The translations under genes were made by a program, and so were the position numbers. The notes under the pieces were generated by a model. It did not search any database and was not told the DNA's origin. It saw only the letters and a list, made by a program, of their open reading frames with translations. Positions 14,132-52,972 of a DNA stretch of 64,000 nt are shown one piece after another. Positions within the stretch are counted from its first letter, which is position 1, and each line of letters starts with the position of its first letter. Location of the stretch: NCBI GenBank assembly GCA_029565065.1, contig JAKQOW010000131.1, positions 6,901-70,900 on the forward strand. Direction: 5' to 3'. This DNA is from Acidobacteriota bacterium (GTDB lineage: Bacteria; Acidobacteriota; JAAYUB01).

Positions 14132-15346
14132 TCATGGTTGTCCGTTTCCGCCGGTTTTGATGTAGGCTTCATGACGGTTCCGGAAGATGACCTTGCAGCG
14201 GGCACAATCCCGATAGAAATGTCCGCTGAACAGACCGTCCCGATACCGCCAGGCCTCCTCGCTGTTCCAGATGGCGGGAAAGTCCTCCGCCAGCAGATTG
14301 CCGATCCGGGTCTCGCCCTCGCAGCAGAAGAACACGTCACCGTTCTCGAAAACCTGGACCTGCCGCCAGGGGTAATGGCAGGGCAGACTCATGTCGCGGC
14401 GGGGCGGCCGCCCGATGAACCGGCGGCCGTACGCCCCGATGAACCGGATCAGGCGCTCGCGGAAGAGCCGCGGATCGTCGCGGAGCATCCGCCCCGCCCG
14501 AACCACCAGCGGCGGCCGCCGCCGAAGCGGGCGCAGCTTCTGCGTCAGCCGGTGCGCGCCCCAATTGCCGCTGACGCGGGTGTTGAGCTCCGGCCACATC
14601 TCGCATTCAACGGGGATGCCGACGGTGTGGGCCGCCCGGACCTGCTCGCGCGCCAGACGGGTCAAGTCGGGATCCTGGAGGATCGATTCGGTCTGCAGTT
14701 CCCGGCTGAACACCCAGAGGCTCTTGTATTGGATCCGTGAAGCATCCAGTTCGCGGGCCAGGCGGGCCGCCGGGACGATGTCATCCAGGTTGCGCCGCAT
14801 GACGATGAATCCGATGACCAGCGTCTCCGGTTTGCCCATCTCCCGGCGCACTTCGCGGATGAAATCCAGATTGCGGCGGATCAGCGGGAACCGGCTGCCG
14901 GTCATGACCCGGTCGTAGCTGCCCACGCCGTTGAGCGAGATGTGTACCTCATTGAAAAACGGCAGCAGGCGGGCGGTGTGCTCCCGGCTGGAGAAACAGG
15001 TGCCGTTGGTGAACGTGAGGAGGTAGGCGTCGCGGTGCCACTCCCGGATTTGCGCCAGCCGGTCCAGGATCCGCCCGGCGAACAAGGGCTCGCCGCATCC
15101 GCCCAGGTTGATGATATCGGCCCGGGCGACGAGCGGCTGCAGCCAGTTGAACACCTCATCCGGCATGTCGGTGAAGGTGGCTGGATCGACTGTCGAACCC
15201 TCCATGTGGGCGTTGCACATGAAGCAGCGCAGGTTGCAGCGGCTGGTGAGATCGAGGATCAGCGAACGGGGATATTCCTCCGGCCTGGGGGTCTGGTGCC
15301 CGCCGGAGCCCGCCCGCTGCGCCTCGTGTCTGAAAGAGGGATTCAT
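14132..15346 (-). CDS. Radical SAM protein with C-terminal SPASM/twitch-type auxiliary cluster domain
   Basis: It has a CxxxCxxC radical-SAM motif (CNLRCFMC) near the N-terminus. It has a C-terminal Cys-rich segment (CHYPW...FFCCEGE...CARC) typical of SPASM domains. It is translationally coupled to the upstream B12-rSAM gene (4-nt overlap). Confidence 0.85.
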   Translation of the reverse strand: MNPSFRHEAQRAGSGGHQTPRPEEYPRSLILDLTSRCNLRCFMCNAHMEGSTVDPATFTDMPDEVFNWLQPLVARADIINLGGCGEPLFAGRILDRLAQIREWHRDAYLLTFTNGTCFSSREHTARLLPFFNEVHISLNGVGSYDRVMTGSRFPLIRRNLDFIREVRREMGKPETLVIGFIVMRRNLDDIVPAARLARELDASRIQYKSLWVFSRELQTESILQDPDLTRLAREQVRAAHTVGIPVECEMWPELNTRVSGNWGAHRLTQKLRPLRRRPPLVVRAGRMLRDDPRLFRERLIRFIGAYGRRFIGRPPRRDMSLPCHYPWRQVQVFENGDVFFCCEGETRIGNLLAEDFPAIWNSEEAWRYRDGLFSGHFYRDCARCKVIFRNRHEAYIKTGGNGQP

Positions 15347-16899
15347 CGCCGCAGGCTCTCCCGGGCGGCTTCAGACGGTCGCGCGAGCGCCGGCACGAAG
15401 AACGGCGCGTGGTTGGAAGTGAACTCGGGCGGCGTCCGGCGCAATATCTCCGCGATGGCCGGCTGCCGGTTGAACTCCCGATCCAGAAATCTCCGGACCG
15501 CCAGGCGGTCCCAGCCCAGCGGATGCCGATAATCTTCGTACAGCGACAGGTCGCCGTCGGAAAACGGCCGGGTGTCCAGCGCGGCCGCCTCATCGCACCC
15601 GCGCGGCAGGTTGAAGATGGACACGTTCAAGAAGCCGATCGCCGCCGCGTGCGCGGCCGCGAAATCCAGCGTGCGCCGGGCGGCCGGCTCCGCCTCCCAC
15701 GGCGTGCCGAACAGCAGGTAAACGTACGTCCCGATCCCCGCCTCGCGCAACCGGTGCAAGGTCAAGCCGGCCGCCGCCAGGTCGATGCCCTTGCGCATCC
15801 GGGCCAGGACGTCCGGGTCGCCGGACTCCAGCCCCAGTTGCAGCATCCGGCAACCCGACCGTCGCAGCGCGCGGCAGAAATCCGGCTCAGCCAGCTCGGG
15901 GGTGAAGCGCGCGAATCCGTACCACGGCGCACCCGGCGGATCGGCGATGAGGGCGCGGAGCGCCGCCGGGCTCAGCGCGTTGTCCAGCAGGTGGACGAGC
16001 GCCGGCCGGTATCGGGCGGCCGACTCGCGCAGGCGCGCCGCCGCGTCTGCAGGAGTCCAGGCGAGGTACCGCCGGTCCTCGGTGCGCTCGGAGCAGAAGG
16101 CGCAGCGGTTCCAGTAGCAGCCTTCCGAAAAGCTGATGCCCAGAATAAGGCCCGGCGCGAGGTATTCCTCCCCGCGGAACGGATTGAAATCCGGCACGGG
16201 AAAATCGTCCGGCTCGCCCGGCAGCTCCGCCGCCCGGAGCAGCGGGCGCTCGCCGGCGCCGGCGATCCATTCGTCAGCCAGGTCGCGGAACGGATCGGCC
16301 CACCCCGGCCTACCCAGCCATGAGCTCACCAGGCCGCCGCCCACGAGGATGCGCACACCGGGGTGGTCGCGGCGGAGAATCCCCAGCAGGGCGAACGCGC
16401 TCAGGGCCTGGTTTAGAAAATTGATGGAGAGGCCGACGATCCGCGGCGCGGTCCCGGACAGCGCGCGGTCGAGGCGCTCGCGGAAAAAGGCGCACAACGG
16501 GTGGTGCTCGGGCGCGGCGGCCTGGGCGATCAGATCGGCGCTTCGCAACGGCGACCGGGCCGGATCCGTGTAGTCGGCCAGGCGGATGCCTACGCCGGCG
16601 GCGTCGCCGTGGGCCTCCAGGAGCCGGCTCAAACCGCGGACCGCGGTGGTGTAGGTGTCCAGGCGCCGGTACGTCGTCGCGTCGCGGATCGCCGCCAGGT
16701 TGCGGTTCCGCTGCTTCACGGCCCGCCGCGTCCAGGTGTCGCCGGCCGGTGGATCCGCGCCGATGAGGTGCAGTTGCGCGTCCAGGTTGAGGTCCAGCAC
16801 CGCCGCGCGTCCGCCGGCGGCGGCGACCGCCCCGGCCAGGCGGGCGAGCCCGGCGGGCGGCTCGGACGCCTTGGTGAAGGGCGGATGAATGAGCAGCAT
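15343..16899 (-). CDS. B12-binding-domain radical SAM enzyme (class B rSAM, methyltransferase-like)
   Basis: An N-terminal cobalamin-binding Rossmann-like region is followed by the radical SAM core with CYWNRCAFC. The 518-aa length is typical of class B rSAMs. Confidence 0.85.
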   Translation of the reverse strand: MLLIHPPFTKASEPPAGLARLAGAVAAAGGRAAVLDLNLDAQLHLIGADPPAGDTWTRRAVKQRNRNLAAIRDATTYRRLDTYTTAVRGLSRLLEAHGDAAGVGIRLADYTDPARSPLRSADLIAQAAAPEHHPLCAFFRERLDRALSGTAPRIVGLSINFLNQALSAFALLGILRRDHPGVRILVGGGLVSSWLGRPGWADPFRDLADEWIAGAGERPLLRAAELPGEPDDFPVPDFNPFRGEEYLAPGLILGISFSEGCYWNRCAFCSERTEDRRYLAWTPADAAARLRESAARYRPALVHLLDNALSPAALRALIADPPGAPWYGFARFTPELAEPDFCRALRRSGCRMLQLGLESGDPDVLARMRKGIDLAAAGLTLHRLREAGIGTYVYLLFGTPWEAEPAARRTLDFAAAHAAAIGFLNVSIFNLPRGCDEAAALDTRPFSDGDLSLYEDYRHPLGWDRLAVRRFLDREFNRQPAIAEILRRTPPEFTSNHAPFFVPALARPSEAARESLRR

Positions 16900-23705: not shown

Positions 23706-23728
23706 GGCCGCGCCCGCCGGGCGCGGCC
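23706..23728. terminator. Perfect GC-rich palindrome (GGCCGCGCC-cgcc-GGCGCGGCC) between the convergent btuC and Fe-S genes; a possible bidirectional terminator hairpin without a clear U-tract
   Basis: A 9-bp stem with a 4-nt loop abuts the TAG stop of the minus-strand gene. Confidence 0.3.
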
Positions 23729-25068
23729 TACTGCGCGGGGAGGACCAGGGCTTCGGCGACAAGTTCGCAGACGGTCTTGATGGCGACGCCCAGTTTGTAC
23801 TCCTTGTTCAACTCGGAGAGTTGGTCCATGCAGTTGTGGCACGGCGTGGCCACAACCTTTGCGGCGGTGGCGCCGATCTGGTCCGCCTTGATCCGGCCGG
23901 CTTGCAGACGACGCTGGGCGTAACGGGTCATGGCCAGCTGGCCGCCCCCGCCGCCGCAGCAAAAATTCTTCTCCCGGTTGGGTGTCATCTCGACAAACTG
24001 CTGAACGGCGTGTCGGAGAACGAAACGCTGCGCCTCCACCACGCCGCCGAGGCGCACCAGGTTGCACGGATCGTGGAGCGTCACCGGCTCAGTGTGCTTC
24101 GACGGATCCAGCGTGATCCGGCCGTCGCGGATGTACTCCGCCAGCAACTCCAGCACGCTCCGCACCCGGAAGGGGTAGCGCTTCGACAGCCATTCGGGCG
24201 CCGCCCAGCGGTTGGCGTTGAAGCCGTGGCCGCACTCACCCAGGATCAGCTCCTGGCAGCCGAGACGCTCCACGGTCCGCACCAGCCGGTCCGACAGCTC
24301 GCCGGCAACGGGCGCCTCGCCGCTGTACAATCCGTAATTGGTCACGTCGTAGTAGTCGGTGGCCAGCGTCCAGCTCTCGCCCGCGGCGTAGAACACCTTG
24401 CCGGCGGCCAGCAGCGACAGGGGGAAGAATTTCGGCTCGCGCGGGTTGACGGTGTAGAGCATCCGCGCGCCGTGGAGGTCGAGGGGCATCCGGGCGGTCG
24501 GGTCGCCGGTTTCGGCCTGCAGCTCCTCCTCCAGCCACTGCACCGTTTCCACCCAGTCGTTCTGGGCGATGCCCATGTTGTTGCCGGTGGTGTACGCGGT
24601 GGTGATGGTGGACTGCAGCTCGGGCGGAATGAGCCCGATGGCGGTGAGCGCGGCCCGGGCCGCGGTGATCAGCGCGGTGATGTTGAGCCCCACCGAGCAG
24701 TTCAGGTTGCAGCGGCCGCAGAGCGAGCAGCGGCCGAACAGCACGTCCACCCACTCACGGGTGAGCGTCTCGTCCAGCTCCCGGGCGCCCACCCAGCCGG
24801 GGACGGTCCGGCCCAGCCGGGTGAAGTAGCGCTTGAACACCGCCATCACCAGGTTGACCTTGTAGGCCGGCGGGTTCTCCGGCTCATCCGAGGTGAGCGC
24901 ATAGTGGCAGGTGTCGGCGCACAGCCCGCAGTGGACGCAGGCGTTCAGGTCGGCGGCGCCCTGGTGCCCCAGCGCGGCGCGAAAAGTCTCGACGGCTTTC
25001 CGGATGTCGGCGGGGGTGAGTCGCCCGAGACGCTCTTCCAGGATGTCTTTGGTGGGCTCGGCGGTCAT
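23728..25068 (-). CDS. Fe-S oxidoreductase with two [4Fe-4S] ferredoxin motifs and two CCG (Cys-rich) domains, HdrD/DsrK/GlcF-like
   Basis: Motifs CVHCGLCADTCHY and CSLCGRCNLNCSV are present, then CCG domains (...DPCNL..., ...FCCGGGGGQ...). The true start is ATG at 25068 (MTAEPTK...), overlapping the stop of the upstream membrane-protein gene. The stop is TAG. Confidence 0.8.
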   Translation of the reverse strand: MTAEPTKDILEERLGRLTPADIRKAVETFRAALGHQGAADLNACVHCGLCADTCHYALTSDEPENPPAYKVNLVMAVFKRYFTRLGRTVPGWVGARELDETLTREWVDVLFGRCSLCGRCNLNCSVGLNITALITAARAALTAIGLIPPELQSTITTAYTTGNNMGIAQNDWVETVQWLEEELQAETGDPTARMPLDLHGARMLYTVNPREPKFFPLSLLAAGKVFYAAGESWTLATDYYDVTNYGLYSGEAPVAGELSDRLVRTVERLGCQELILGECGHGFNANRWAAPEWLSKRYPFRVRSVLELLAEYIRDGRITLDPSKHTEPVTLHDPCNLVRLGGVVEAQRFVLRHAVQQFVEMTPNREKNFCCGGGGGQLAMTRYAQRRLQAGRIKADQIGATAAKVVATPCHNCMDQLSELNKEYKLGVAIKTVCELVAEALVLPAQ

Positions 25069-25706
25069 GGCTGCGACTCCCGCGGCCGCGGCGGCAGCAC
25101 GCCCCGCCGGCCGAAAAAGATGCCGAACAGGATCCGGCTGTAGAAAAAGAAGAAGCAATGGCGGATTTTTCCCAGCGGTATATATAGGAAGAGCAGGGCG
25201 GCCGTCGCCAGAAGGACGGTGTCCGCGCCCGGAATCCACAAGCTGGCGATGGCCGCAGCCAGCAGCAGGTCGACCAGCACGTTGGCGGCGAAATCGTCCG
25301 GGCAGCTGATGCTGCGGAGCACCGGCTTGACCGCGCGCTTGACCAGCAGGCCGATCCCGCCGGCGGCGCCCGCCGCGAAGACGGCGGTGAGCGGAATCCT
25401 CCATTCTGCGGGCAGGGCGACGCGGCTCATCACGGTGACGAGATAACCCAGGGCGGCGAACACCGCGCCGTGATACCCGATTCCGGTCAGGTAGGTGGGC
25501 AGGTGCCGGGCGGCGCTCTCTTTTCCCCACGGCATCATGCCGGGCCCGAATGCGTAGGCGATACCCTTCAGGGAAACGCCCGCCGCTGCCGAATGGATCT
25601 CATGGCGACCGAACCGGTACGCGCGGACGGTCTGGAAAACCAGCGCCGCCAGGCACCACGCGGCGGCGGCCAGCACGGCCAGACGGAGCGGATCGAGCCC
25701 GGCCAT
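25065..25706 (-). CDS. Integral membrane protein, possibly NarI/DsrM/HdrE-like heme-b subunit (tentative)
   Basis: The 213-aa product has about 5 TM helices with several His residues in TM regions. It is translationally coupled to the downstream CCG Fe-S gene. Confidence 0.55.
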   Translation of the reverse strand: MAGLDPLRLAVLAAAAWCLAALVFQTVRAYRFGRHEIHSAAAGVSLKGIAYAFGPGMMPWGKESAARHLPTYLTGIGYHGAVFAALGYLVTVMSRVALPAEWRIPLTAVFAAGAAGGIGLLVKRAVKPVLRSISCPDDFAANVLVDLLLAAAIASLWIPGADTVLLATAALLFLYIPLGKIRHCFFFFYSRILFGIFFGRRGVLPPRPRESQP

Positions 25707-25713
25707 CGGCGGT

Positions 25714-26040
25714 TCACACGCAGCCGTCGGGCTTCGGGAGCCCCGCCAACTTGCACGCGCCCTTGGCCGGACCAGACGGGAACATCTCGTAAATCTGGCG
25801 CAGCGGGAAGCCGGTGGTCTTGCAGATCGCCCGAACCATGGGCGCGAGCTGCTTTTCCAGGAAGTATGCCCGAATGAACTCGATCACCGCCCAGTGGGCC
25901 GGGGAGAGCTCCTGCAGGCCTTCTTCCTGACGAGCCAGCGCCGCGGCGATATCGCGGTCCCACTCCATGGGATTGACCATGAAGCCTTCCTCGTTGAGCT
26001 CGTGCTGTTTGCCGTTCACTTCAATTACGCCCATTCCCAA
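25714..26040 (-). CDS. DsrC/TusE-family sulfur carrier protein (two C-terminal Cys, DsrC-type)
   Basis: The C-terminus ...GACKLAGLPKPDGCV has the conserved penultimate Cys and a second Cys 11 residues upstream, as in DsrC. It carries the TusE/DsrC helix-turn-helix-like fold signature (...HWAVIEFIRAYFLEKQ...). Confidence 0.85.
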   Translation of the reverse strand: MGMGVIEVNGKQHELNEEGFMVNPMEWDRDIAAALARQEEGLQELSPAHWAVIEFIRAYFLEKQLAPMVRAICKTTGFPLRQIYEMFPSGPAKGACKLAGLPKPDGCV

Positions 26041-26124
26041 TCTCCTGTGTAGTTAATATGTAAAGATTTATCTTTATTGAAATTGAAATACTAAAACAGT
26101 CAACGTTCGGAAGCAAGCGGTTCT

Positions 26125-28152
26125 TTACGGGAGCAGGCGCCGGTCCTTCAGCATCAGGAGCAGGTGGGCGGCGGTCCAGCTGAAGTGGGATGCCCGCAGA
26201 CCGTGCCCGGTGACGGGATCGTAGTTTTCGCGAAGCGGCGCGGGGGAATCGGCGGCGCCCCGCAGGTTGGCCAGGAGCTGTTCGGCCAGCGCATCCGCTT
26301 CCTGTCGGAAGCCGCAGCGGCGCAGGCCGGCCAGACCGAAGAAGGCCTGATCCAGCCAGACGGGCCCCCGCCAGTAGCCGTCCAGGGCCGCGGCGGGATG
26401 GTCGGCGGACAGCGTGGGGAAGGGAAGATGGGTGCGGAACCGGGTCGGGTCCATCAGCGCGTCGCGAACCCGCTCGGCTTGGCGCCGGGTGGCGACGCCG
26501 GCCCACAGGGGGATCCAGGCCTCCGGGCCCGGCGCCCGGACGAACGCCCCGTCCGCGAGGCGGATGTCGGCGAACAGCCCGGCTGCCTCGTCGAACATCC
26601 GGCTGCGGATGAGCCGCCGGAGCCGTCCGGCTTCCCCCGCCAGCCGATCGGCATCGCCCCGCCGCCCGATGAGCCGGGCCAGCCGGGCCAGGCAGCGCTT
26701 CTCGGCGTACAGGTAGGCGTTCAGATCCGCCGACGCCTGGTCCAGCGTCCAGGCGCCGGGACCGTGGGCGACGAGCCGTGCGTCGTCGAAGCGGGCGGCG
26801 TTGTCCATGCCGCTCTCCCATTTGGCGGCGGTCAGGTCGTCGCAGGTGGAGCCGTACTCGCACAGTCCGTCGCGATCACGGTCCCGCTGCGCGTACCACC
26901 AACGGTGGTATCGCCAGAGCCGCGGATACACCTCGCGCACGAACTCCCGGTCGCCGGTGGCGGCGTACACCGCGGCCACGGCCCAGGCGGCGAGCGGCGG
27001 CTTGGTGTTGAGCCAGTTGTCCTGGGAACTGTCGGCGAACACGCAGTCGGCCACCATGCCCGCGTCGTTCTGCCGCTCCAGCATGGCCCGGACCTGCGAG
27101 CGGGCCAGCTCCGGTTCAAACTCGGCCAGCGCGGCGGCGTGCTTCCACGAGTCCCAGGCCCAGAATCCGTTGAAGTACCCCACCGCGCCGGAAGGGATGA
27201 CGCCGTCGTGGCGCAGTGCGCCCGCCGGGGCGCGCCAGTTGTTCACCAGCGTCATCACCGCCTTGACCGCCAGGCGGCGGCCGGAGTCGCGGCGCAGAAG
27301 CGGTGCATCGCCGCCGAGCGCCCGGTCCAGATAGCCCTGCCAGCGTTCCCGGTTGCGGGCGAACGCGGCGCCGGTGTCGGCCAGCGCCGCATCGGCCACG
27401 GCGAGTTCGGGATCTCCACCGGACGGCGACCGCACCAGAACCAGGGCGAGCGCGGTGGCGGCACTGCCGCCGGGCGCGATCACTGTGGGCGCCGGGAAGT
27501 CGGCACGGTAGCCGGTGGAACCGCCGCCGGTGACGCGCCACGCCGTCGCGTCCGGCGGCACCACGTGCAGCGCCCCGGCGCCGGCGCCCCAGACCGCGCG
27601 AATGCTCGCATCGCCTGTCTCCAGCCGGGCGGCCGCGTCGAGGAGTTCGCCTTCCCATCGCCAGAGGACGGCCAGCGGTGACGTCGACCGATTGGTCACT
27701 TCCGCCCGCACCAGGGCCGTCGCCGCCGACGCGAAGAACAGTTCCAGCCTAACCGTTGTGCGGTCCGTCTCCGTCGACAGCCGCAGCAGTCCCGGGTAGA
27801 CCGTGCGGATCATCACCGCCGGTTGCGGGGGCAGGAGCGGGGAGCCGGTGGCGGCGTCCACCGGCACGAACCGGGCGATCGAGCGGCTGAGCCACCGGCC
27901 CGGTTCCGTGAGATACGGACCGGCGAAACCGACGGCGGTTCCATCCGCCGGGATGGCGTAGCCGTGCCAGGCTCCGCAATCAAACAGGCAGCCGGGCGCC
28001 GGTTCATCGGCGCAGCACGGCGTCTGGCTCAGGTCGAGCACATCGGCGAAGTGGCTCCAGGTGGCGGTGGGGGCAGTCGCGGGACGTGGGGCCGCCGCGG
28101 CCATCGCTGCCAGGAGCAACCAGCCCATAACCATCGAACGGACACGAGCCAT
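26125..28152 (-). CDS. Secreted (alpha/alpha)6-barrel glycoside hydrolase, GH63 / GDE_C (amylo-alpha-1,6-glucosidase)-like
   Basis: It has a signal peptide and a catalytic-region motif WESGMDNAARFD (GMDNS-type). A Trp/Tyr-rich C-terminal barrel (YWRGPVWLDQAFF) is typical of GH63/GH37/GDE_C. Confidence 0.75.
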   Translation of the reverse strand: MARVRSMVMGWLLLAAMAAAAPRPATAPTATWSHFADVLDLSQTPCCADEPAPGCLFDCGAWHGYAIPADGTAVGFAGPYLTEPGRWLSRSIARFVPVDAATGSPLLPPQPAVMIRTVYPGLLRLSTETDRTTVRLELFFASAATALVRAEVTNRSTSPLAVLWRWEGELLDAAARLETGDASIRAVWGAGAGALHVVPPDATAWRVTGGGSTGYRADFPAPTVIAPGGSAATALALVLVRSPSGGDPELAVADAALADTGAAFARNRERWQGYLDRALGGDAPLLRRDSGRRLAVKAVMTLVNNWRAPAGALRHDGVIPSGAVGYFNGFWAWDSWKHAAALAEFEPELARSQVRAMLERQNDAGMVADCVFADSSQDNWLNTKPPLAAWAVAAVYAATGDREFVREVYPRLWRYHRWWYAQRDRDRDGLCEYGSTCDDLTAAKWESGMDNAARFDDARLVAHGPGAWTLDQASADLNAYLYAEKRCLARLARLIGRRGDADRLAGEAGRLRRLIRSRMFDEAAGLFADIRLADGAFVRAPGPEAWIPLWAGVATRRQAERVRDALMDPTRFRTHLPFPTLSADHPAAALDGYWRGPVWLDQAFFGLAGLRRCGFRQEADALAEQLLANLRGAADSPAPLRENYDPVTGHGLRASHFSWTAAHLLLMLKDRRLLP

Positions 28153-28386: not shown

Positions 28387-29838
28387 ATGGATATGCAGAC
28401 GACGGTACTGTTGGTCATCGGCGTCCCGCTGCTCGGGTCGCTGCTGATCCCGCTGCTGGGCTGGTTCAAGCTGCCGAAGGTGACAGGCTACGTCTGCGTG
28501 GCGCTCATCGGCGCCGCCCACGTCCTGTCCTGGACGCTTCTCGGCCCCGCCCTGGGCGGGATCACCACCCACTGGAGCAAGCCGCTGTACGAATGGGCCA
28601 GCTTCAGCCTGACATTCGACGCGCTGGCCGCCTTCATGGCGTTCACCGCCTCCCTGATCGCCACGCTCATCGCCATCTACTCGCTGGGTTACATCGAGCA
28701 CGGCGAGGACGAGCCGGAGTACTATTTCGTCGTGACCCTCTTCCTGGGCGCGATGATGGGGCTGGTGTTCTCCTCCAACCTGTTGTTCCTCTACTTGTTC
28801 TGGGAGATCTCGGCGCTGGCCTGCTGGCGGTTGATCGGCTACTTCCGGGAGCCCGACTACATCTGGAAAGCCGACAAGGCGTTTCTGGTGACCTTCGGCG
28901 GCGCGGTGTTCATGCTGTTGGGATTCGCCCTGGTGTTCGCTCAGTACGGCACGTTCGAGCTCGCCGAGCTGCGCGGCCAGGAGATCGGACCGGTCGCCCT
29001 GCTCCTCATCCTGCTCGGCGTGTTCTCCAAGAGCGCCACGGTGCCGCTGCACACGTGGCTGCCCGATGCCGGCGTGGCGCCCTCCACCATCACCTCGCTG
29101 CTGCACGCCGCCATCCTCGTCAAGATCGGCCTGTACGGCTTTGCCCGCATGTTCGCCAACGGCATGGTGATCCCGCCGGCCTGGGAGACGGGCATCCTCA
29201 TCGCCGCCCTGGTCAGCGCGTTCGTGTCGGCCTGCGCAGCGCTGCGTGAAACCAACATCAAGCGCATGCTGGCCTACTCGACGGTGAGCCAGATCGGCTA
29301 CACGTTCCTGGGGCTGGCCGCGTTCACCCATTTCGGGTACATCGGCGCCCTGCTGTACATCATGGCCCACGGCCTCGCCAAGGGCGGCCTCTTCCTCTGC
29401 GCCGGCATCATCGAGCACGGCACTCACACCAAGGACATGACCAAGATGGGCGGGCTCATCCAGAAGATGCCCATCACGGCTTTCTGCTACATCGTCTGCG
29501 CCCTGAGCATCGCGGGCATCCCGCCCATGGCCGGGTTCTTCTCCAAGTACTTCGTCATCTCCGGCCTGGTCGAAGGCGGACACACCTACATTGCCGGCCT
29601 GGCGATCCTGACCGCGGTGGTCACGCTGCTGTACATGCTCAAGAGCTTCCACGTGATCTTCATGGGAGCGCCGCGCGGCGAGTCCCACCACGAGGGTTCG
29701 CCCGTGATGGTGGGCGTGGTGGCCGTGCTGGCGGTGCTCACCGTCATCGTGGGAGCCCTGATGCATCTGCCCTTCGAACTGGCCCGCGTGGCCGATGGGG
29801 AACGCCTGGTCCAGGTGTTCACCTTCCTGTGGAGGTAA
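28387..29838 (+). CDS. Hydrogenase membrane subunit, MrpD/NuoN/NuoM-like antiporter module (1 of 3)
   Basis: It has 14 TM helices and the conserved antiporter motifs (WLPDAG...; TxxxLLHAAxLVKxGxYG; AYSSxxQxGY). Confidence 0.85.
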   Translation: MDMQTTVLLVIGVPLLGSLLIPLLGWFKLPKVTGYVCVALIGAAHVLSWTLLGPALGGITTHWSKPLYEWASFSLTFDALAAFMAFTASLIATLIAIYSLGYIEHGEDEPEYYFVVTLFLGAMMGLVFSSNLLFLYLFWEISALACWRLIGYFREPDYIWKADKAFLVTFGGAVFMLLGFALVFAQYGTFELAELRGQEIGPVALLLILLGVFSKSATVPLHTWLPDAGVAPSTITSLLHAAILVKIGLYGFARMFANGMVIPPAWETGILIAALVSAFVSACAALRETNIKRMLAYSTVSQIGYTFLGLAAFTHFGYIGALLYIMAHGLAKGGLFLCAGIIEHGTHTKDMTKMGGLIQKMPITAFCYIVCALSIAGIPPMAGFFSKYFVISGLVEGGHTYIAGLAILTAVVTLLYMLKSFHVIFMGAPRGESHHEGSPVMVGVVAVLAVLTVIVGALMHLPFELARVADGERLVQVFTFLWR

Positions 29839-29841
29839 GCC

Positions 29842-31659
29842 ATGAACGCTGACGTCCTGTTGTTGCTACCCATCATCGTGCCCCTCGTCTGCGCCGGGCT
29901 GATCCTCCCCATCTTCCGCAAGCGGAGCGTGGCGATCGCCTGGCTCGCCCTGCTGGCCGTGGTGGTCTCCGCCGCGGCGTTCCTGCTGGTCGCCGGCGGA
30001 CCGGCGGTCCAGTTCGCCATCCCCTGGATGGAGCTGTTCCGGCTGGAGTTCAGCCTGACGGGCTGGAAGGCGTTTCTCCTCTTCTTCGTGTTCGCGTTCC
30101 AGTTGATGACCGCGGTGTACTGCCTGGGGGCGATCCGCCGGGTAGCCAAGCCGCTGCTGTTTCTCGCCTTCGTCCTGGTCGCCTTCGCCGCCGCCTGCGG
30201 CGTCATCCTGACCGACAACCTGCTGTTCCTGCTCATCGCCTGGGAGGTCTTCCTGGTGGCCCTCTACGCGGTGATCCACAGCTCCGGCGACGGGGCCGAG
30301 GGTGTGGCCATGAAGGCCCTGGTGATCGGCGGGAGCAGCGACTTCCTGATGATCCTCGGGCTGATGCTCTACTTCGCCGTCTCCGGCGGCATGGCCATGG
30401 ACGCCCACCTGCCGGTGGCGCAGAGCACCGCATCGTTCCTCTCCTTCCTGTTGCTGTTTCTCGGCGCCGGCGCCAAGGCGGGCATGTTCCCGTTCCATAC
30501 CTGGATCCCCGACGCGGCCGAGGTGATGCCCGCCGCCGGTTTCGCGGCCCTGCCGGCCTCGCTGGAAAAGGTGCTGGGGATCTACTTCCTGTTCATCGTG
30601 AGCTACCAGATGTTCGCGCTGAACGAGGCGGCCCGGATCGTGATGTACGCGTTCGGCCTGATCACGGTGTTCGTGTCCATCGTGCCGGCACTGGTGGAGG
30701 AGAACCTGCGCAAGGTGCTCGCCCTGACGGCGATCTCCCCCGTCGGCTTCATGGTCGCCGGGCTGGCCACGTCGGAAGTCGCCGGCATGGCCGGCGCCCT
30801 GCTGTACATGCTCACCCACGCCACCTACAAGTCCTGCATGTTCTTCGCCGTGGGCCAGTTTGAGGAGCACGCCGGCGGCGCCCGCCTGTCATCGCTGCAG
30901 GGGATCGCCCGGCTGCTGCCGTTGTCGGGCCTGGGCTTCCTGCTGGCGTTCACCGCCGCCGTCTCGCTGCCGCCCACCGGCGGCTTCATCGCCAAGGATT
31001 TGATCTTCGAAGGGGTGGTGGAGCGCGGCCATTACCTGGTGTTCCTCGCGCTGTGGATTGGAGCCATCCTGAACATGGCCGTATTCTGCAAGGTCATCGC
31101 CGTCCTGTGGGGACGCGGCGAGGACCGGCCGGTGCCCGCCGCGGCGACTCTGACGGCGCCGGTGCTGGTGCTGGGAATCGGCGCGGTGCTGACGGGCTGG
31201 ATCTTCACCCTGGCCGCGCCGGTGTTCGGGGCCGTCCTCCCCGTGGAGCACGCCGGCTGGATCGCCGCCGTGTGGCACCTCTCCCCGCTGACGGTGGCCT
31301 CCTACTCCATCTACCTGTTCGGCGCCCTGCTGTTCTTCGCCGCGCGCGCGCGCGCCGCGGAGCCCGCGGCGACCTTCGCCTCGCTCCGGCAGTCGCCGGT
31401 GCTGGGCCGCACACTGGAGCTGGCCCGCCAGAAGAAGTTCGACGGTTACGAGATCGGCGTGAAGGTGGTCAACTGGATCGCCGAGTTGGTCTTCCGTCGG
31501 TTCGAGCGGCTCATCGACGAGGTCGCCGACTGGATCATCCGGACCGGCCGCGCCTTCTCCGGCGCCCTGCTCAGCGCCCCGCACGACGGCACCTACAGCA
31601 CCTACCTGGGCTGGGTGATCGTGGGGTTGGCGATCGTAGCCGCTCTGATTTTTGTGTAA
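29842..31659 (+). CDS. Hydrogenase membrane subunit, NuoL/MrpA/MrpD-like antiporter module (2 of 3)
   Basis: The 605-aa polytopic protein has the TWIPDAAE motif and a C-terminal extension, resembling NuoL/HyfB-type subunits. Confidence 0.85.
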   Translation: MNADVLLLLPIIVPLVCAGLILPIFRKRSVAIAWLALLAVVVSAAAFLLVAGGPAVQFAIPWMELFRLEFSLTGWKAFLLFFVFAFQLMTAVYCLGAIRRVAKPLLFLAFVLVAFAAACGVILTDNLLFLLIAWEVFLVALYAVIHSSGDGAEGVAMKALVIGGSSDFLMILGLMLYFAVSGGMAMDAHLPVAQSTASFLSFLLLFLGAGAKAGMFPFHTWIPDAAEVMPAAGFAALPASLEKVLGIYFLFIVSYQMFALNEAARIVMYAFGLITVFVSIVPALVEENLRKVLALTAISPVGFMVAGLATSEVAGMAGALLYMLTHATYKSCMFFAVGQFEEHAGGARLSSLQGIARLLPLSGLGFLLAFTAAVSLPPTGGFIAKDLIFEGVVERGHYLVFLALWIGAILNMAVFCKVIAVLWGRGEDRPVPAAATLTAPVLVLGIGAVLTGWIFTLAAPVFGAVLPVEHAGWIAAVWHLSPLTVASYSIYLFGALLFFAARARAAEPAATFASLRQSPVLGRTLELARQKKFDGYEIGVKVVNWIAELVFRRFERLIDEVADWIIRTGRAFSGALLSAPHDGTYSTYLGWVIVGLAIVAALIFV

Positions 31660-31696
31660 GCCCGTCGACGGGAACGTAACGCCTCTGAGGTAGCTT

Positions 31697-33136
31697 ATGA
31701 TTACGAATATCGGATTGATGCTGCTGCTGCCGCTGGCCGCCGTCATCCTGATGCCGTGGGTGTCCCGGCTGCACCGGCGCGCCGCGGACGTCCTGGCCGC
31801 GCTGGCCGGCCTCGGCCTCGTCGGCCTGTGTTTGCGGTTCATCCCGCTGCGCGGGGAAACCCTGACGCTGCGGGTGCTGAACACGCAGTTCTCCGTGGAC
31901 GGCCTGAGCCTGCTGTTTCTCGTGGTGGTCAACGTCGTCGCGTTCTTCTGCATCCTCTACTCCATCGACTACATGAATCACTACGACGGCCGGGGCAAAT
32001 TCTACGCGCTGCTCCTGCTGATGGTGCTCGGCCTGAACGGCGTGCTGCTGGTGCGCGACCTGTTCAGCCTGTACGTGTACCTGGAGATCGTCTCCATCGC
32101 CTCCTACGTCCTGGTGGCGTTCGGCCTGAAGTGGGACGGCATCGAGTCGGCGCTCAAGTACCTGCTGCTGTCGGTAGTGGCCACGGGCCTGATCCTCGTC
32201 GGCCTGGGGATCATGTACCTGAACCTGGGCACGCTGGAATTCGCCGAGCTCAAGCTGCTGCTGGCCGCGGGGAGCGGGCCCAACACCGTCTTCCTGCTGG
32301 CGGCCGCGCTGTTCATCGCCGGCTTCGGGCTGAAGGCGGCGATCATGCCGTTCCACGCCTGGCTGCCCGACGCCCACCCGTCGGCGCCGGCGCCCATCTC
32401 GGCGATGCTGAGCGGCGTGGTGATCAAGGTGGCCGGCGTCTATGCCCTGACCCGGCTCTTCTTCGACATCTACCCGTCGCCGGCCCGGGTCCTGAACGTA
32501 TTCCTGATCCTGGGTGTCGCCTCGATGATCGGCGGCGCGCTGATCGCCTATTTCCAGAGCGACATCAAGCGGATGTTCGCCTACTCCAGCATCAGCCAGA
32601 TCGGCTACATCCTCATCGGCCTGGGCCTGGGCAACCCGCTGGGCCTGATCGGGGCGCTGTTCCATGTGCTCAATCACGCCCTGTTCAAGTCCCTGCTGTT
32701 CTTGAACAGCGGCGCCCTGCAGTACCGGACTCACACCCGCGATATGAACGAGATGGGCGGCCTGGAGCACCGGATGCGCGTCACCGGGATCACCAGCATC
32801 TTCGGAACGCTGTCGATCGCCGGAGTGCCACCGTTCAACGGGTTCTGGAGCAAGCTGTTCATCATCCTGGGCGCGCTGGCCGCCAAGCAGTACGTCGTGG
32901 CGGTGCTGGCCATTTTCCTGAGCGTCTTCACCCTGGGCTATTTCCTGCTCATGCAGCGACGGGTCTTCTTCGGCAAGCTCAACCTGAAGTGGCAGGATCT
33001 CAAAGAAGTGCCGCTGACCATGTCGCTGGCGATGATCTTCCTGGCGGCGCAGTGCCTGCTGGTGGGCATTTTCTTCAACGAGGTGCTCCGGTACCTGGTG
33101 GAACCCGCGGCTGCCATTCTGCTGGGAGGGAAGTGA
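31697..33136 (+). CDS. Hydrogenase membrane subunit, MrpD/NuoN-like antiporter module (3 of 3)
   Basis: It has 14 TM helices and the motifs AWLPDAHP, AMLSGVVIKVAGVY and AYSSISQIGY. Confidence 0.85.
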   Translation: MITNIGLMLLLPLAAVILMPWVSRLHRRAADVLAALAGLGLVGLCLRFIPLRGETLTLRVLNTQFSVDGLSLLFLVVVNVVAFFCILYSIDYMNHYDGRGKFYALLLLMVLGLNGVLLVRDLFSLYVYLEIVSIASYVLVAFGLKWDGIESALKYLLLSVVATGLILVGLGIMYLNLGTLEFAELKLLLAAGSGPNTVFLLAAALFIAGFGLKAAIMPFHAWLPDAHPSAPAPISAMLSGVVIKVAGVYALTRLFFDIYPSPARVLNVFLILGVASMIGGALIAYFQSDIKRMFAYSSISQIGYILIGLGLGNPLGLIGALFHVLNHALFKSLLFLNSGALQYRTHTRDMNEMGGLEHRMRVTGITSIFGTLSIAGVPPFNGFWSKLFIILGALAAKQYVVAVLAIFLSVFTLGYFLLMQRRVFFGKLNLKWQDLKEVPLTMSLAMIFLAAQCLLVGIFFNEVLRYLVEPAAAILLGGK

Positions 33137-33137
33137 C

Positions 33138-33632
33138 ATGCTGCTCTACGCTTCACTCGTCTTGCTGGTCATCTTTGCCATCCTGGTCTGCTTCTTCCGG
33201 GATCTGCTGTACGCGGCCGTGTCGCTGGCGCTGGCGAGCGTGATGCTGTCGGTGGTGCTGTTCCAGTACGGAGCCAACATCGCCGCGGTGTTCGAGCTCA
33301 GCGTCTGCGCCGGACTGATCACGGTGCTGTTCGTCTCCACGGTGAGCATGACGAAGGACTCGGACCAGGCGAACGAATCCCGACTGCCGGCCTACTTCCT
33401 TCCCTTCATCCTGGTGCTCTTCCTGGGCCTGGACTTTTTCCTGGTGAAGTGGCTGGCGGGCTCGACCCTCGTGGGCGCCGGCTTTCCGGCGACTCCCGGC
33501 CTGACCTTTCAGAACGCGTTCTGGGGACAGCGCATGACCGATATCGTCGGCCAGGTGAGCCTGATTCTGGTGGGCGTGTTCGGCATCCTAACCATCATGC
33601 GGGCGTTGTCCGAGAGGAGGAAACATGACTGA
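33138..33632 (+). CDS. Small polytopic membrane subunit, MrpB/MnhB-like
   Basis: The 164-aa product has 4-5 TM helices. It is translationally coupled within the operon, in the position typical of Mbh/Mrp B-like subunits. Confidence 0.6.
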   Translation: MLLYASLVLLVIFAILVCFFRDLLYAAVSLALASVMLSVVLFQYGANIAAVFELSVCAGLITVLFVSTVSMTKDSDQANESRLPAYFLPFILVLFLGLDFFLVKWLAGSTLVGAGFPATPGLTFQNAFWGQRMTDIVGQVSLILVGVFGILTIMRALSERRKHD

Positions 33633-33933
33633 GGACGTCATCCTGCTGCTGCTCAGCGGCCTGCTGCTGTTCATGGTGGGCGTATATTTGATGTTCGCCT
33701 ATCGCAATCTGCTCCGGATCATCCTCGGCGTCGAGGTCATGGCCAAGGGCGTCACGCTGGTCCTTCTGGCTGCGGGCGTCTTTCGGGGCAGCGTGGAATA
33801 CATCCAGGCCCTGATCGTGACCTTCATCATCGTCGAGACCATCCTGGCCGCGGTGGTGCTGGCGCTCACCTTTGTCGCCCAGCGGATTTACAACTCCCTC
33901 GACATCCGCAATCTGTCGAAGTTGAAGGGGTAA
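33625..33933 (+). CDS. NuoK/MrpC-like membrane subunit
   Basis: The 102-aa product has 3 TM helices and a conserved Glu in TM (GVEVMAKG...IIVETI), as in NuoK/MnhC. Confidence 0.7.
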   Translation: MTEDVILLLLSGLLLFMVGVYLMFAYRNLLRIILGVEVMAKGVTLVLLAAGVFRGSVEYIQALIVTFIIVETILAAVVLALTFVAQRIYNSLDIRNLSKLKG

Positions 33934-33937
33934 TGCC

Positions 33938-34270
33938 ATGGACCTGAACATTCTGCTCTCTCCGCCGGTCGCGTTTGTCACCTTCCTGGGACTCAGCGCC
34001 CTGCTGTACCTGGTGGGCCGGTTGATCGGCGCCCGGCCGAATCCGGAGCCGGGCAAGGCCGAAACCTACGCCTGCGGTGAGAATTTCCACCCCGACAAAT
34101 TCACCTTTGCGTACCGCCGCTTCTTCATTGCGGCGATCTTCTTCACCGTCATGCACGTGGCCGTGCTCACCATCGCCACGGTGCCGGGTGGCGCGCTGGC
34201 CTTCCGGGCGTTGGGCTACCTGGCGGTGATCGCGCTGTCGGTATCCATCCTGTTCGTGGATTTTGACTAG
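33938..34270 (+). CDS. NuoA-like membrane subunit
   Basis: The 110-aa product has 3 TM helices and the YACGE motif characteristic of NuoA-type subunits. Confidence 0.6.
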   Translation: MDLNILLSPPVAFVTFLGLSALLYLVGRLIGARPNPEPGKAETYACGENFHPDKFTFAYRRFFIAAIFFTVMHVAVLTIATVPGGALAFRALGYLAVIALSVSILFVDFD

Positions 34271-34291
34271 ACTTCTGCAAGGAGTGCTGCC

Positions 34292-34726
34292 GTGTTCAAG
34301 AAACTGGTGAAGTGGGCCCGGGTCAAGTCCCCGTGGATCCTGCATTTCAACTCCGGGGCGTGCAACGCCTGCGATATCGAAATTTTGGCGTCGCTGATGC
34401 CCCATTACGATCTGGAGCGGTTCGGCGTCATGCTCAAGGCGTCACCCCGCCACGCGGATGTGCTGATCTGCAGCGGCCCGGTCTCCAAGCAGATCGCCCC
34501 GCGGCTGCGGCGGATCTACGAGCAGATGCCGGATCCCAAGTTTGTCGTCGCGGTGGGTGCTTGCGCATGCAGTGGCGGCGCGTTCCGGGGATGTTATAAT
34601 GTAATGGGCGGTATAGATTCTGTAGTGCCGGTCGCCGCCTATGTTCCGGGTTGCCCGGTCAAGCCGGAAGCGCTCATCGACGGCGTGGCCAAACTGTTGG
34701 GCGAACTGAACAAAGAGTCGGCCTGA
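34292..34726 (+). CDS. [NiFe]-hydrogenase group 4 small subunit (NuoB-like, proximal 4Fe-4S)
   Basis: The four Cys ligands are in the conserved pattern NSGACNACD...CSGP...GACACSGG...VPGCP. Confidence 0.9.
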   Translation: MFKKLVKWARVKSPWILHFNSGACNACDIEILASLMPHYDLERFGVMLKASPRHADVLICSGPVSKQIAPRLRRIYEQMPDPKFVVAVGACACSGGAFRGCYNVMGGIDSVVPVAAYVPGCPVKPEALIDGVAKLLGELNKESA

Positions 34727-34741
34727 GGGCAGGAGGAAACC

Positions 34742-35206: not shown

Positions 35207-35207
35207 C

Positions 35208-36407: not shown

Positions 36408-36419
36408 CAGAGGGAGTGT

Positions 36420-37388: not shown

Positions 37389-37390
37389 CC

Positions 37391-38575: not shown

Positions 38576-38778
38576 TTTTGTTCTCATCCGTGCGATCGGC
38601 GACTCGAGGCCTGGCCGCAGCGACTATCTTCAGTGGCGCGCGTTCGATGAACGCACGCCAGAAGTACCTCGGGCTAGAGGCCGCTAAGTACAGCGGGCCT
38701 CCGGTGAACGCTGCCAACTGGCGGGCAAATCTGTTGTGACGAAATATATCTGGGGCGAAGCGGGACAGGTGGCCGCGG

Positions 38779-51916: not shown

Positions 51917-51925
51917 GGAGGAATC

Positions 51926-52939: not shown

Positions 52940-52972
52940 TTGTCCGGGAGTGCACGGGATTGGGGAGGATCC

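What the first reader, a model, noticed from the sequence alone, without database searches (positions are those of the whole stretch)
23728..26124. Stand-alone DsrC-like carrier + HdrD/DsrK-like CCG protein + small membrane subunit module, without dsrAB
A 108-aa protein ends in the bona fide DsrC C-terminal arm (ACKLAGLPKPDGCV, two Cys 11 residues apart). It is translationally coupled to a 213-aa membrane protein (His-rich TM helices) and a 446-aa protein with two ferredoxin motifs and two CCG domains. This resembles a minimal DsrMK-DsrC or HdrDE-like thiol/disulfide respiratory module. No dissimilatory sulfite reductase genes are nearby. The operon has its own sharply AT-rich promoter region (26041-26124), so it may serve a different disulfide/persulfide redox role, for example in TusE-like sulfur trafficking.
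Basis: partly seen in the sequence, partly recalled or inferred. Interest (0 to 1): 0.55.

Follow-up and report, generated by a model that had tools for sequence, protein, structure and literature searches.

The report
DsrC carrier plus membrane reductase
A three-gene operon encodes a DsrC-type sulfur-carrier protein and its own two-subunit membrane reductase. The same module recurs in hundreds of uncultured anaerobes, usually beside a cysteine desulfurase gene and never beside sulfite reductase genes, which hints at a DsrC cycle that runs without the classical sulfite reductase.

Summary
Three minus-strand genes sit behind an 84-nt AT-rich leader (32% GC against 67% for the window). They are a DsrC-type protein (106 aa from the ATG; both arm cysteines), a 213-aa membrane protein, and a 446-aa Fe-S/CCG protein whose start overlaps the preceding stop (ATGA).

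Corrections:
- The CCG protein has one intact CCG motif plus the GECGH remnant. This is the DsrK/HmcF/TmcB signature, not that of HdrD or GlcF.
- The membrane protein is a divergent NarI-fold relative of HmcE/TmcC with only three conserved histidines.

The trio is conserved in 64 of about 74 assessable loci from Aminicenantes, Holophagaceae, Zixibacteria, Eisenbacteria and Ignavibacteria. A TIGR01977 cysteine desulfurase gene lies within 400 nt in 41 of 68 assessable loci, in two orientations, though not in this window. I found no dsrAB-like gene in the window or in any flank.

Most likely this is a quinol-linked DsrC persulfide/trisulfide/disulfide reductase that works independently of DsrAB. 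I could not test whether dsrAB lies elsewhere in these genomes. I rate it a new variant of a known kind, of moderate interest.

The parts
26035..26124 (-). AT-rich leader and promoter region of the operon, with Shine-Dalgarno AGGAG 7 nt before the ATG
   Evidence: GC is 0.32-0.33 against a window mean of 0.666. The sequence contains TTGACT and AGGAG. The strict sigma-70 scan found nothing. The same position in many related loci carries an extended -10, TATGCTATAAT. No Rfam element was found.
25714..26034 (-). DsrC-type sulfur-carrier protein, 106 aa, with C-terminal arm GACKLAGLPKPDGCV (CysB and CysA)
   Evidence: Pfam PF04358 121 bits and TIGR03342 104 bits. Matches solved DsrC chains 2xsj_C, 1ji8_A and 2v4j_C at E 1e-30 to 1e-32. 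The arm is conserved in 64 related loci.
25065..25706 (-). Five-helix membrane subunit, 213 aa: a divergent NarI-fold relative of HmcE/TmcC with conserved H68, H79 and H183. Presumed cytochrome b and quinone-interacting anchor
   Evidence: No Pfam hit. HmcE is matched by 28 of 28 family members, TmcC by 24, DsrM by 8. AF2 model pLDDT 87.6. Best folds are NarI and EtfD. A natural fusion with the CCG protein exists (P0384).
23728..25068 (-). Cytoplasmic catalytic subunit, 446 aa: two [4Fe-4S] ferredoxin motifs, the GECGH cysteine (C279/H281), and one complete CCG motif (C335, C370, C371, C410, C413) with D415
   Evidence: NCBIfam TmcB 286, HmcF 283, DsrK 234 and GlcF 35 bits. Pfam CCG 329-417. 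All these sites are kept in 80 loci, with one exception at one ferredoxin Cys. Fold matches EtfD, LutA and HdrB.
23706..23728 (.). GC-rich 10-bp hairpin that starts in the stop codon, lying between the convergent CCG and FecCD genes. Possible two-way terminator, but with no U tract
   Evidence: Sequence. Fold energy -58.9 kcal/mol for the 106-nt region, z -2.87. Not picked up by the terminator scan.

Best explanation
The operon encodes a self-contained redox cycle built around a DsrC-type carrier.

- Shown by sequence: the 106-aa protein is a DsrC with the flexible C-terminal arm and both redox cysteines. The 446-aa protein has the full cofactor signature of the DsrK/HmcF/TmcB catalytic subunits: two ferredoxin-type [4Fe-4S] motifs, one complete CCG motif for a non-cubane [4Fe-4S] cluster, and the non-ligating GECGH cysteine.
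- Shown by profile and fold: the 213-aa protein is a NarI-fold membrane anchor related to HmcE/TmcC.
- Partnership of the two subunits: it is shown by the overlapping stop/start, by conserved adjacency, and by a natural fusion protein.
- Inferred mechanism: the membrane subunit takes electrons from the quinol pool, through at least one heme b. It passes them through the two cubane clusters to the non-cubane cluster. There the oxidised arm of DsrC (persulfide, trisulfide or CysA-CysB disulfide) is reduced, which releases sulfide and regenerates DsrC.
- Inferred from gene neighbourhood in relatives: the sulfur is loaded onto DsrC by a TIGR01977-family cysteine desulfurase, not by the sulfite reductase DsrAB. 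The module would then dispose of, or deliver, cysteine-derived sulfane sulfur, and could serve fermentative anaerobes as a quinone-linked electron sink.
For: - Family assignments.
- GECGH plus a single CCG motif matches the published DsrK/HmcF/TmcB signature (PMC10861901; bioRxiv 10.64898/2026.08.25.746951).
- Every cluster ligand and GECGH is kept in 80 loci, with one exception at one ferredoxin Cys.
- The membrane protein model matches NarI (Foldseek probability 1.0) and EtfD. The CCG protein model matches EtfD at 8.6e-11 and also HdrB.
- The dsrC-membrane-CCG order is kept in 64 loci from several phyla. Only about 10 loci with enough upstream DNA lack dsrC.
- A 670-aa natural fusion of membrane and CCG parts exists, 40% identical over the whole CCG protein.
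- The cysteine desulfurase family gene scores 446 bits against a cutoff of 377. It lies within 400 nt of the CCG gene in 41 of 68 assessable loci (33 convergent, 8 co-directional), and within 2.3 kb in 5 more.
- No dsrAB-like ORF appears in any flank (motif screen) or in the 64-kb window.
- Published Aminicenantes genomes are reported with a two-Cys dsrC but no dsrAB (PMC6081815), or with no dsr genes at all (PMC4897734).
Against: - Absence of dsrAB from the whole genome was not tested. Some phyla that carry the module (Zixibacteria, some Acidobacteriota) do contain dsrAB-bearing members.
- The desulfurase gene is not adjacent in this window or in its closest relative L007. In most loci it is convergent, so it is not co-transcribed.
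- The membrane subunit keeps three, not four, conserved histidines. Its heme content and quinone site are therefore uncertain.
- Quinol-driven reduction of a simple persulfide is thermodynamically uphill (general knowledge).
- Whether these organisms make menaquinone is unknown.
- There is no expression or biochemical evidence.
Confidence: 0.55

Rival explanations
1. It is the ordinary Dsr pathway. This dsrC and a minimal DsrMK-type complex serve a dissimilatory sulfite reductase (DsrAB) encoded elsewhere in the genome. DsrAB makes the DsrC trisulfide and this complex reduces it.
For: - The carrier is a bona fide two-cysteine DsrC. Its best matches are the DsrC chains of sulfate/sulfite reducers.
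- DsrMK complexes without JOP are known, and dsrC need not sit beside dsrAB (PMC10504309).
- One wetland Aminicenantes MAG carried dsrD as well as dsrC (PMC6081815).
- The NCBIfam DsrK score is the highest relative to its cutoff (234 of 400).
Against: - All equivalog cutoffs are missed: DsrK 234 against 400. The membrane subunit matches HmcE/TmcC better than DsrM and lacks the fourth heme histidine.
- No dsrAB-like ORF lies within 10 kb in 80 loci, although dsr genes commonly cluster.
- The recurrent neighbour is a cysteine desulfurase gene instead.
- Aminicenantes-PK28 is reported to lack dsr (PMC4897734).
- The arm motif is PKPDGCV in every locus. The five DsrC chains whose alignments were printed all read PKPTGCV.
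Confidence: 0.2
2. It is a biosynthetic sulfur relay of the TusE kind. DsrC accepts a persulfide from a cysteine desulfurase and hands it to a thiolation or cofactor-synthesis enzyme. The membrane complex only resets the carrier.
For: - A cysteine desulfurase family gene adjoins the module in most related loci.
- CysA is invariant, whereas CysB is replaced by Ala in 4 of 64 loci, as expected if only the persulfide-carrying Cys is essential.
Against: - The TusE equivalog model scores 68 bits against a cutoff of 191.
- No tusBCD, mnmA, thiI or moaD-type genes are in the window, and none appeared among the recurrent neighbour families examined in related loci.
- Known relays need no membrane quinone-linked Fe-S reductase (general knowledge).
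- CysB is kept in 60 of 64 loci.
Confidence: 0.12
3. The module runs in the oxidative direction. Reduced or persulfurated DsrC is oxidised by the CCG subunit, and the electrons enter the quinone pool, as proposed for DsrMK in sulfur oxidisers.
For: The same protein families work in reverse in sulfur oxidisers (PMC8477390). Nothing in the sequence fixes the direction.
Against: - The carrier matches reductive-type DsrC better (108-115 bits) than the Allochromatium oxidative type (89 bits).
- No DsrEFH, DsrL, sHdr, Sox or rhodanese genes lie nearby.
- The hosts come from anaerobic digesters, and this one encodes an Mbh-type hydrogenase next door.
- Without DsrAB there is no outlet for an oxidised product.
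Confidence: 0.08
4. The CCG and membrane pair oxidises a small organic substrate or an electron-transfer protein, like GlcF, LutA or EtfD, and the dsrC gene is an unrelated passenger.
For: The best solved-structure match for both proteins is mycobacterial EtfD. LutA is the second fold match for the CCG protein.
Against: - GlcF scores only 35 bits, over the ferredoxin part alone.
- No GlcDE, LutBC or ETF genes lie nearby.
- dsrC is kept directly upstream in 64 loci across phyla.
- The GECGH motif is specific to the DsrK/HmcF/TmcB group (PMC10861901).
Confidence: 0.03

Closest known systems
DsrC with the DsrMK complex (the minimal form of DsrMKJOP in sulfite and sulfate reducers)
   Same: - A two-cysteine DsrC carrier.
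- A cytoplasmic subunit with two cubane-cluster motifs, a single CCG motif and the GECGH cysteine.
- A NarI-fold membrane partner.
- No periplasmic subunits.
   Different: - Both subunits miss the DsrK and DsrM equivalog cutoffs.
- The membrane subunit has three conserved histidines, not four.
- The last Cys of the CCG motif is retained, whereas many DsrK proteins carry Asp there.
- The arm reads PKPDGCV, not PKPTGCV.
- The recurrent neighbour is a cysteine desulfurase gene, not dsrAB.
HmcE-HmcF and TmcC-TmcB, the cytoplasm-facing modules of the Hmc and Tmc complexes of Desulfovibrio
   Same: These are the best-scoring curated families for both subunits: TmcB 286 and HmcF 283 bits, and HmcE matched by 28 of 28 family members. 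They share the single CCG motif and the T/GECGH motif.
   Different: - Scores are about 40% of the equivalog cutoffs.
- No cytochrome c, HmcBCD or TmcD subunits are encoded.
- Here dsrC is part of the gene cluster. To my knowledge that is not so for hmc or tmc, where DsrC is only a proposed substrate.
HdrDE heterodisulfide reductase of Methanosarcina
   Same: A membrane cytochrome b anchor plus a cytoplasmic Fe-S/CCG subunit that reduces a disulfide with electrons from a membrane carrier.
   Different: HdrD has two complete CCG motifs and two non-cubane clusters, and its substrate is CoM-S-S-CoB. Here there is one cluster and a protein-bound substrate.
Mycobacterial EtfD (PDB 9ojn)
   Same: It is the closest solved structure for both proteins. 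It has a NarI-like membrane domain fused to an HdrD-like Fe-S/CCG domain. One relative of this module (P0384) has the same fused layout.
   Different: EtfD takes electrons from the electron-transfer flavoprotein into menaquinone. No ETF genes are found here, identity in the fold alignments is only 11-18%, and a dsrC gene is attached.
TusE of the IscS-TusA-TusBCD-TusE tRNA thiolation relay
   Same: The same protein family (TIGR03342), a persulfide-carrying penultimate Cys, and a link to a cysteine desulfurase.
   Different: TusE-type proteins are scored far lower (68 of 191 bits). There are no TusBCD or MnmA genes, the second Cys is present, and a membrane reductase is attached.

Membership tests
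DsrC (bona fide, as opposed to TusE/RspA) | DsrC/TusE fold family | tested here: met
   PF04358 121 bits against a cutoff of 24.9, and TIGR03342 104 bits against 53.5. Matches solved DsrC chains at E 1e-30 to 1e-32.
DsrC (bona fide, as opposed to TusE/RspA) | Two conserved cysteines in the C-terminal arm (penultimate CysA, and CysB upstream of it) | tested here: met
   The arm is ACKLAGLPKPDGCV. CysA is present in 64 of 64 related loci and CysB in 60 of 64.
DsrC (bona fide, as opposed to TusE/RspA) | DiSCo arm motif AGLPKPTG(not N)C[A/V], one difference allowed (PMC8477390) | tested here: met
   AGLPKPDGCV has one difference, T to D. The D is invariant in this clade. The five DsrC chains whose alignments were printed all have T.
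DsrC (bona fide, as opposed to TusE/RspA) | Occurs in a genome that encodes DsrAB | not testable with these tools
   None is in the 64-kb window or in the flanks of 80 loci (motif screen).
TusE | Reaches the NCBIfam TusE equivalog score | tested here: not met
   NF008562 scores 68.3 bits against a cutoff of 191.
TusE | Works with TusBCD and MnmA | tested here: not met
   No such genes are among the ORFs called in the window. The rest of the genome was not seen.
DsrK/HmcF/TmcB group (single non-cubane cluster CCG proteins) | Two ferredoxin-type [4Fe-4S] motifs | tested here: met
   C44/47/50/54 and C114/117/120/124 are invariant. They are kept in 79 of 80 loci.
DsrK/HmcF/TmcB group (single non-cubane cluster CCG proteins) | Exactly one complete CCG motif, CXnCCGXnCX2C | tested here: met
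   There is one Pfam CCG hit, 329-417. C335, C370, C371, G372, C410 and C413 are invariant. The first CCG domain has lost its cysteines except C279.
DsrK/HmcF/TmcB group (single non-cubane cluster CCG proteins) | Conserved non-ligating Cys in a T/GECGH motif (Cys329/His331 of A. fulgidus DsrK) | tested here: met
   GECGH at 277-281. It is [A/G/T]ECGH in all 80 loci. The motif definition comes from PMC10861901 and the 2026 preprint.
DsrK (equivalog) | Reaches the NCBIfam DsrK score | tested here: not met
   NF045796 scores 233.8 bits against a cutoff of 400.
HmcF / TmcB (equivalogs) | Reaches the NCBIfam HmcF or TmcB score, and is encoded with cytochrome c subunits (HmcA or TmcA) | tested here: not met
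   HmcF scores 282.8 against 750 and TmcB 286.2 against 735. No cytochrome c genes lie in the operon.
HdrD | Two complete CCG motifs (two non-cubane clusters) | tested here: not met
   Only one complete motif is present.
GlcF (glycolate oxidase Fe-S subunit) | Reaches the GlcF score, with GlcD/E partners | tested here: not met
   NF008434 scores 34.6 bits against a cutoff of 333, matching residues 35-66 only. No GlcDE genes lie nearby.
NarI / DsrM / HmcE-type dihaem cytochrome b | Five-helix NarI fold | tested here: met
   AF2 model pLDDT 87.6. The top eight Foldseek matches are NarI chains (probability 1.0, E about 0.01, TM 0.41-0.44). HmcE is matched by 28 of 28 family members, best E 2.7e-10. 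No Pfam hit.
NarI / DsrM / HmcE-type dihaem cytochrome b | Four conserved histidines that ligate two hemes b | tested here: not met
   Only H68 (90%), H79 (99%) and H183 (97%) are conserved in 121 family representatives. No fourth His column exists.
NarI / DsrM / HmcE-type dihaem cytochrome b | Binds heme and oxidises quinol | not testable with these tools
   This needs purified protein.

The most novel reading that the evidence does not exclude
A DsrAB-independent DsrC cycle. A type II cysteine desulfurase loads cysteine sulfur onto DsrC, and a dedicated HmcEF-like membrane complex reduces it to sulfide with quinol. This would give widespread uncultured fermenters (Aminicenantes, Holophagae, Zixibacteria and others) a previously unrecognised quinone-linked way of using cysteine or sulfane sulfur as an electron sink. 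It would also provide the first natural gene-cluster link between HmcF/TmcB-type proteins and DsrC.
Probability: 0.3. Interest if true: 0.8.

Novelty: new variant of a known kind. Interest (0 to 1): 0.55.

Why it matters
- dsrC is used as a marker of dissimilatory sulfur metabolism in metagenomes. A two-cysteine dsrC with its own reductase, present in at least 485 genome stretches from GTDB species representatives that are mostly described as fermenters, would mean such calls are often wrong. The DiSCo authors counted DsrC in DsrAB-less genomes as false positives.
- It puts a DsrC gene in the same operon as an HmcF/TmcB-like protein. That supports the long-standing but unproven idea that DsrC is the cytoplasmic substrate of those complexes.
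- The recurrent cysteine desulfurase neighbour gives a directly testable hypothesis for where the sulfur comes from.
- The module is only three small genes, so it is a tractable system for studying how a single non-cubane cluster reduces protein-bound sulfur.

Tried and rejected
- GlcF, HdrD and TusE membership: tested and not met.
- Link to the neighbouring Mbh-type hydrogenase, GH63-like glycosidase or FecCD transporter: rejected, because these neighbours are shared only with the closest relative L007.
- Riboswitch or other known RNA in the leader: none.
- Strict sigma-70 promoter: none found by the scan.
- Profile search of the membrane family against PDB sequences: only chance-level hits. 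Only the fold search and the NCBIfam HmcE/TmcC models connect it to NarI-type proteins.
- Screen of 1,127 crude ORFs from the flanks for the siroheme motif CX5C...CX3C: two hits. One belongs to the aldo-keto reductase-like Fe-S cluster 18. The other is an HdrA-like flavoprotein in L049. Neither is DsrAB. This screen is crude and is no substitute for a profile search.
- Correlated change between the four CysB-to-Ala DsrC variants and the CCG active site: none.
- P0385, an apparent second fusion: it looks like a frameshifted gene call, not a real fusion.
- Literature searches for this gene trio or for a DsrC-desulfurase link: nothing found.
- The 2014 DsrC review (PMID 24662917): not held in the library.
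Full report
**What is there**

On the minus strand, three genes follow an 84-nt stretch of 32% GC in a window of 66.6% GC.

- The first gene runs from 26034 to 25714. It starts at an ATG preceded by AGGAG, not at the upstream TTG, and encodes 106 aa ending in GACKLAGLPKPDGCV.
- The second runs from 25706 to 25065, starts 7 nt after the first stop, and encodes 213 aa.
- The third runs from 25068 to 23728. Its ATG overlaps the preceding TGA (ATGA), and it encodes 446 aa.
- A 10-bp GC hairpin begins in the last stop codon, and a convergent FecCD gene follows.
- Identical gene calls (106, 213 and 446 aa) are on record on contigs from anaerobic digester metagenomes.
- The closest genome is an Acidobacteriota MAG from an anaerobic membrane bioreactor, 93% identical for the CCG protein.

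**The carrier**

- It matches Pfam DsrC at 121 bits and TIGR03342 at 104 bits. The TusE equivalog reaches only 68 of 191 bits.
- Against solved structures it matches the DsrC chains of Desulfomicrobium, Pyrobaculum and Desulfovibrio at E 1e-30 to 1e-32. Allochromatium DsrC matches at 2e-24. The 7syb sulfurtransferase chain, the only non-DsrC-labelled match, scores 26.6 bits.
- Both arm cysteines are present.
- The one departure is PKPDGCV, where the five DsrC chains whose alignments were printed read PKPTGCV.

**The catalytic subunit**

- Its best curated families are TmcB (286 bits), HmcF (283) and DsrK (234). All are below their equivalog cutoffs of 735, 750 and 400. GlcF scores 35 bits, on the ferredoxin part only.
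- An alignment with 15 relatives shows two CxxCxxCxxxC motifs and one complete CCG motif (C335, C370-C371-G372, C410, C413).
- In place of the first CCG motif there is an invariant E-C279-G-H281.
- Barbosa et al. 2024 and Yin et al. [quoted passage not shown] HdrB and HdrD have two clusters.
- All these residues are kept in 80 related loci, with one exception at one ferredoxin Cys.
- The AF2 model (pLDDT 72.8) matches mycobacterial EtfD at 8.6e-11, then LutA and HdrB.

**The membrane subunit**

- It has no Pfam hit. Sources name its relatives 'hypothetical protein' or, occasionally, 'nitrate reductase gamma subunit'.
- All 28 family members scanned match NCBIfam HmcE (best E 2.7e-10), 24 match TmcC and 8 match DsrM.
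- The AF2 model (pLDDT 87.6) has five membrane helices. Its eight best PDB matches are NarI chains, and EtfD gives the highest TM-score.
- Charge distribution puts the N-terminus outside and the conserved loops and C-terminus inside, as in NarI. This is my reading of the sequence.
- Only three histidines are conserved across 121 representatives: H68 90%, H79 99%, H183 97%. There is no fourth. The canonical dihaem arrangement is therefore not supported. One bis-His heme is plausible, and the role of the third histidine is open.
- The family comprises 432 clusters at 50% identity with E up to 1e-3, and 143 with E up to 1e-30.
- One member, P0384 (670 aa), is a natural fusion of this protein with a full-length CCG protein at 40% identity. 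This supports the two acting as one complex and mirrors the EtfD layout. Its locus shows no dsrC.

**Conservation**

- The best 80 come from Aminicenantes, Holophagaceae, other Acidobacteriota, Zixibacteria, Eisenbacteria and MAGs labelled Ignavibacteria.
- In 79 of the 80 loci the membrane gene lies directly upstream. The exception is L069, where the locus starts 60 nt before the CCG match.
- In 64 loci dsrC lies upstream of the membrane gene. About 10 loci with enough upstream DNA lack dsrC.
- The arm GAC-K[LVI]AGLPKPDGCV is nearly invariant. CysA is present in 64 of 64 loci, and CysB in 60 of 64, replaced by Ala in four.
- Many loci carry an extended -10 (TATGCTATAAT) about 35 nt before dsrC, so the trio has its own promoter.
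- The window's other neighbours are shared only with the closest relative and are not part of the module.

**The recurrent neighbour**

- Clustering of flank ORFs gave one family that recurs far beyond lineage-level synteny. It is a 400-aa PLP enzyme scoring 446 bits on TIGR01977 (cysteine desulfurase family protein, cutoff 377). It has the HK lysine motif and an RTGLHCAP cysteine motif, as read from the sequence.
- By tblastn it lies within 400 nt of the CCG gene's end in 41 of 68 loci with enough downstream DNA. It is convergent in 33 and co-directional in 8, the latter mostly Holophagaceae. It lies within 2.3 kb in 5 more.
- In a Holophaga chromosome (L048) the co-directional run is followed by para-aminobenzoate synthesis-type genes (GATase, chorismate-binding enzyme, class IV aminotransferase), which bounds the unit there to dsrC, the membrane gene, the CCG gene and the desulfurase gene.
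- Adjacency kept in two orientations across phyla argues for a functional link.
- It is absent at this position in the window and in L007.

**Sulfite reductase**

- No dsrAB, apr, sat, asr or tus gene is among the ORFs called in the 64-kb window.
- A motif screen of the flanks of 80 loci found none either.
- I could not scan whole genomes.
- The literature gives partial support:
  - A wetland Aminicenantes MAG had a two-cysteine dsrC and dsrD but no dsrAB (PMC6081815).
  - Aminicenantes-PK28 lacks dsr genes (PMC4897734).
  - DiSCo counts DsrC in DsrAB-less genomes as false positives (PMC8477390).
- None of the papers I found describes this trio or its desulfurase neighbour.

**Mechanism**

- Shown by sequence, profile and fold evidence: a DsrC-type carrier, a DsrK/HmcF/TmcB-type catalytic subunit with intact cofactor ligands, and a NarI-fold anchor. 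Genetic coupling ties them together, and for the two subunits so does a natural fusion.
- Inferred by analogy with DsrMK(JOP), for which menadiol-driven DsrC-trisulfide reduction was demonstrated (PMC10861901): electrons pass from quinol through heme b and two cubane clusters to the non-cubane cluster, where the oxidised DsrC arm is reduced with help from C279.
- Inferred from neighbourhood: the sulfur comes from a cysteine desulfurase rather than from DsrAB.
- The main rival is that dsrAB lies elsewhere and this is simply the organism's DsrC and DsrMK. I give that 0.2.
- A TusE-like biosynthetic relay, reverse operation, and a non-sulfur substrate are less likely.

**Verdict**

The module is a distinct, widely distributed variant of the DsrC/DsrMK and HmcEF theme. 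As far as the searchable literature shows, its gene linkage to dsrC and to a cysteine desulfurase has not been described. Interest is moderate. It would be high if genome-wide absence of dsrAB and sulfur transfer from the desulfurase were confirmed.

Noticed in passing
window 28387-38313 (+): Divergent from the glycosidase gene lies a complete membrane-bound group 4 [NiFe] hydrogenase cluster of the Mbh/Mrp type. It has three antiporter-like subunits; NuoJ-, K-, A-, B- and H-like subunits; a large subunit with both Ni-binding motifs (RICGICSHSH and DPCFSC); a two-cluster ferredoxin subunit (about 37388-37786); and a HycI-like maturation protease (37783-38313).
   Followed up: partly
window 38429-38576: Tandem array of 21 copies of the 7-nt unit CTCAACC (88% matches), just after the hydrogenase cluster. 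Purpose unknown.
   Followed up: no
window 26125-28152 (-): A 675-aa GH63/MGH1-like glycoside hydrolase with a YgjK-like N-domain lies directly upstream on the same strand. It is shared only with the closest relative, so it is not part of the module.
   Followed up: partly
window 14132-16899 (-), and 11884-13221 (+): Two adjacent radical SAM genes, one with a SPASM domain, lie near a DUF1565 protein. This may be a peptide-modification or cofactor-maturation pair.
   Followed up: no
L049 3358-11311: In one Aminicenantales genome the membrane-CCG pair has no dsrC. Instead it is preceded on the same strand by two HdrA/QmoA-like flavoproteins and two related Fe-S proteins, which suggests an alternative electron input for the same pair.
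   Followed up: partly
L087 6001-8013 (protein P0384): A 670-aa natural fusion of the membrane subunit and the CCG subunit, with SPCGH in place of GECGH and no dsrC next to it. It has the same architecture as mycobacterial EtfD.
   Followed up: partly
Upstream of dsrC in L060, L062, L070, L079; and in L048, L085, L086: Holophagaceae loci share conserved palindromic elements before dsrC: ATTGTCATGCACACAAT in one group and GAATATTATTCTGCATATGCAAAT in the other. They look like binding sites for an unknown regulator.
   Followed up: no
L009, L014, L022, L029 (dsrC arm): In four loci the upstream arm cysteine (CysB) is replaced by alanine, while the CCG active-site residues are unchanged. This recalls the one-cysteine DsrC reported for Desulfurella.
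   Followed up: partly
window 49670-55093 (+): A run of large genes with AAA+ domains (AAA_2, weak AAA_5) and two proteins with no family match. It was not examined further.
   Followed up: no
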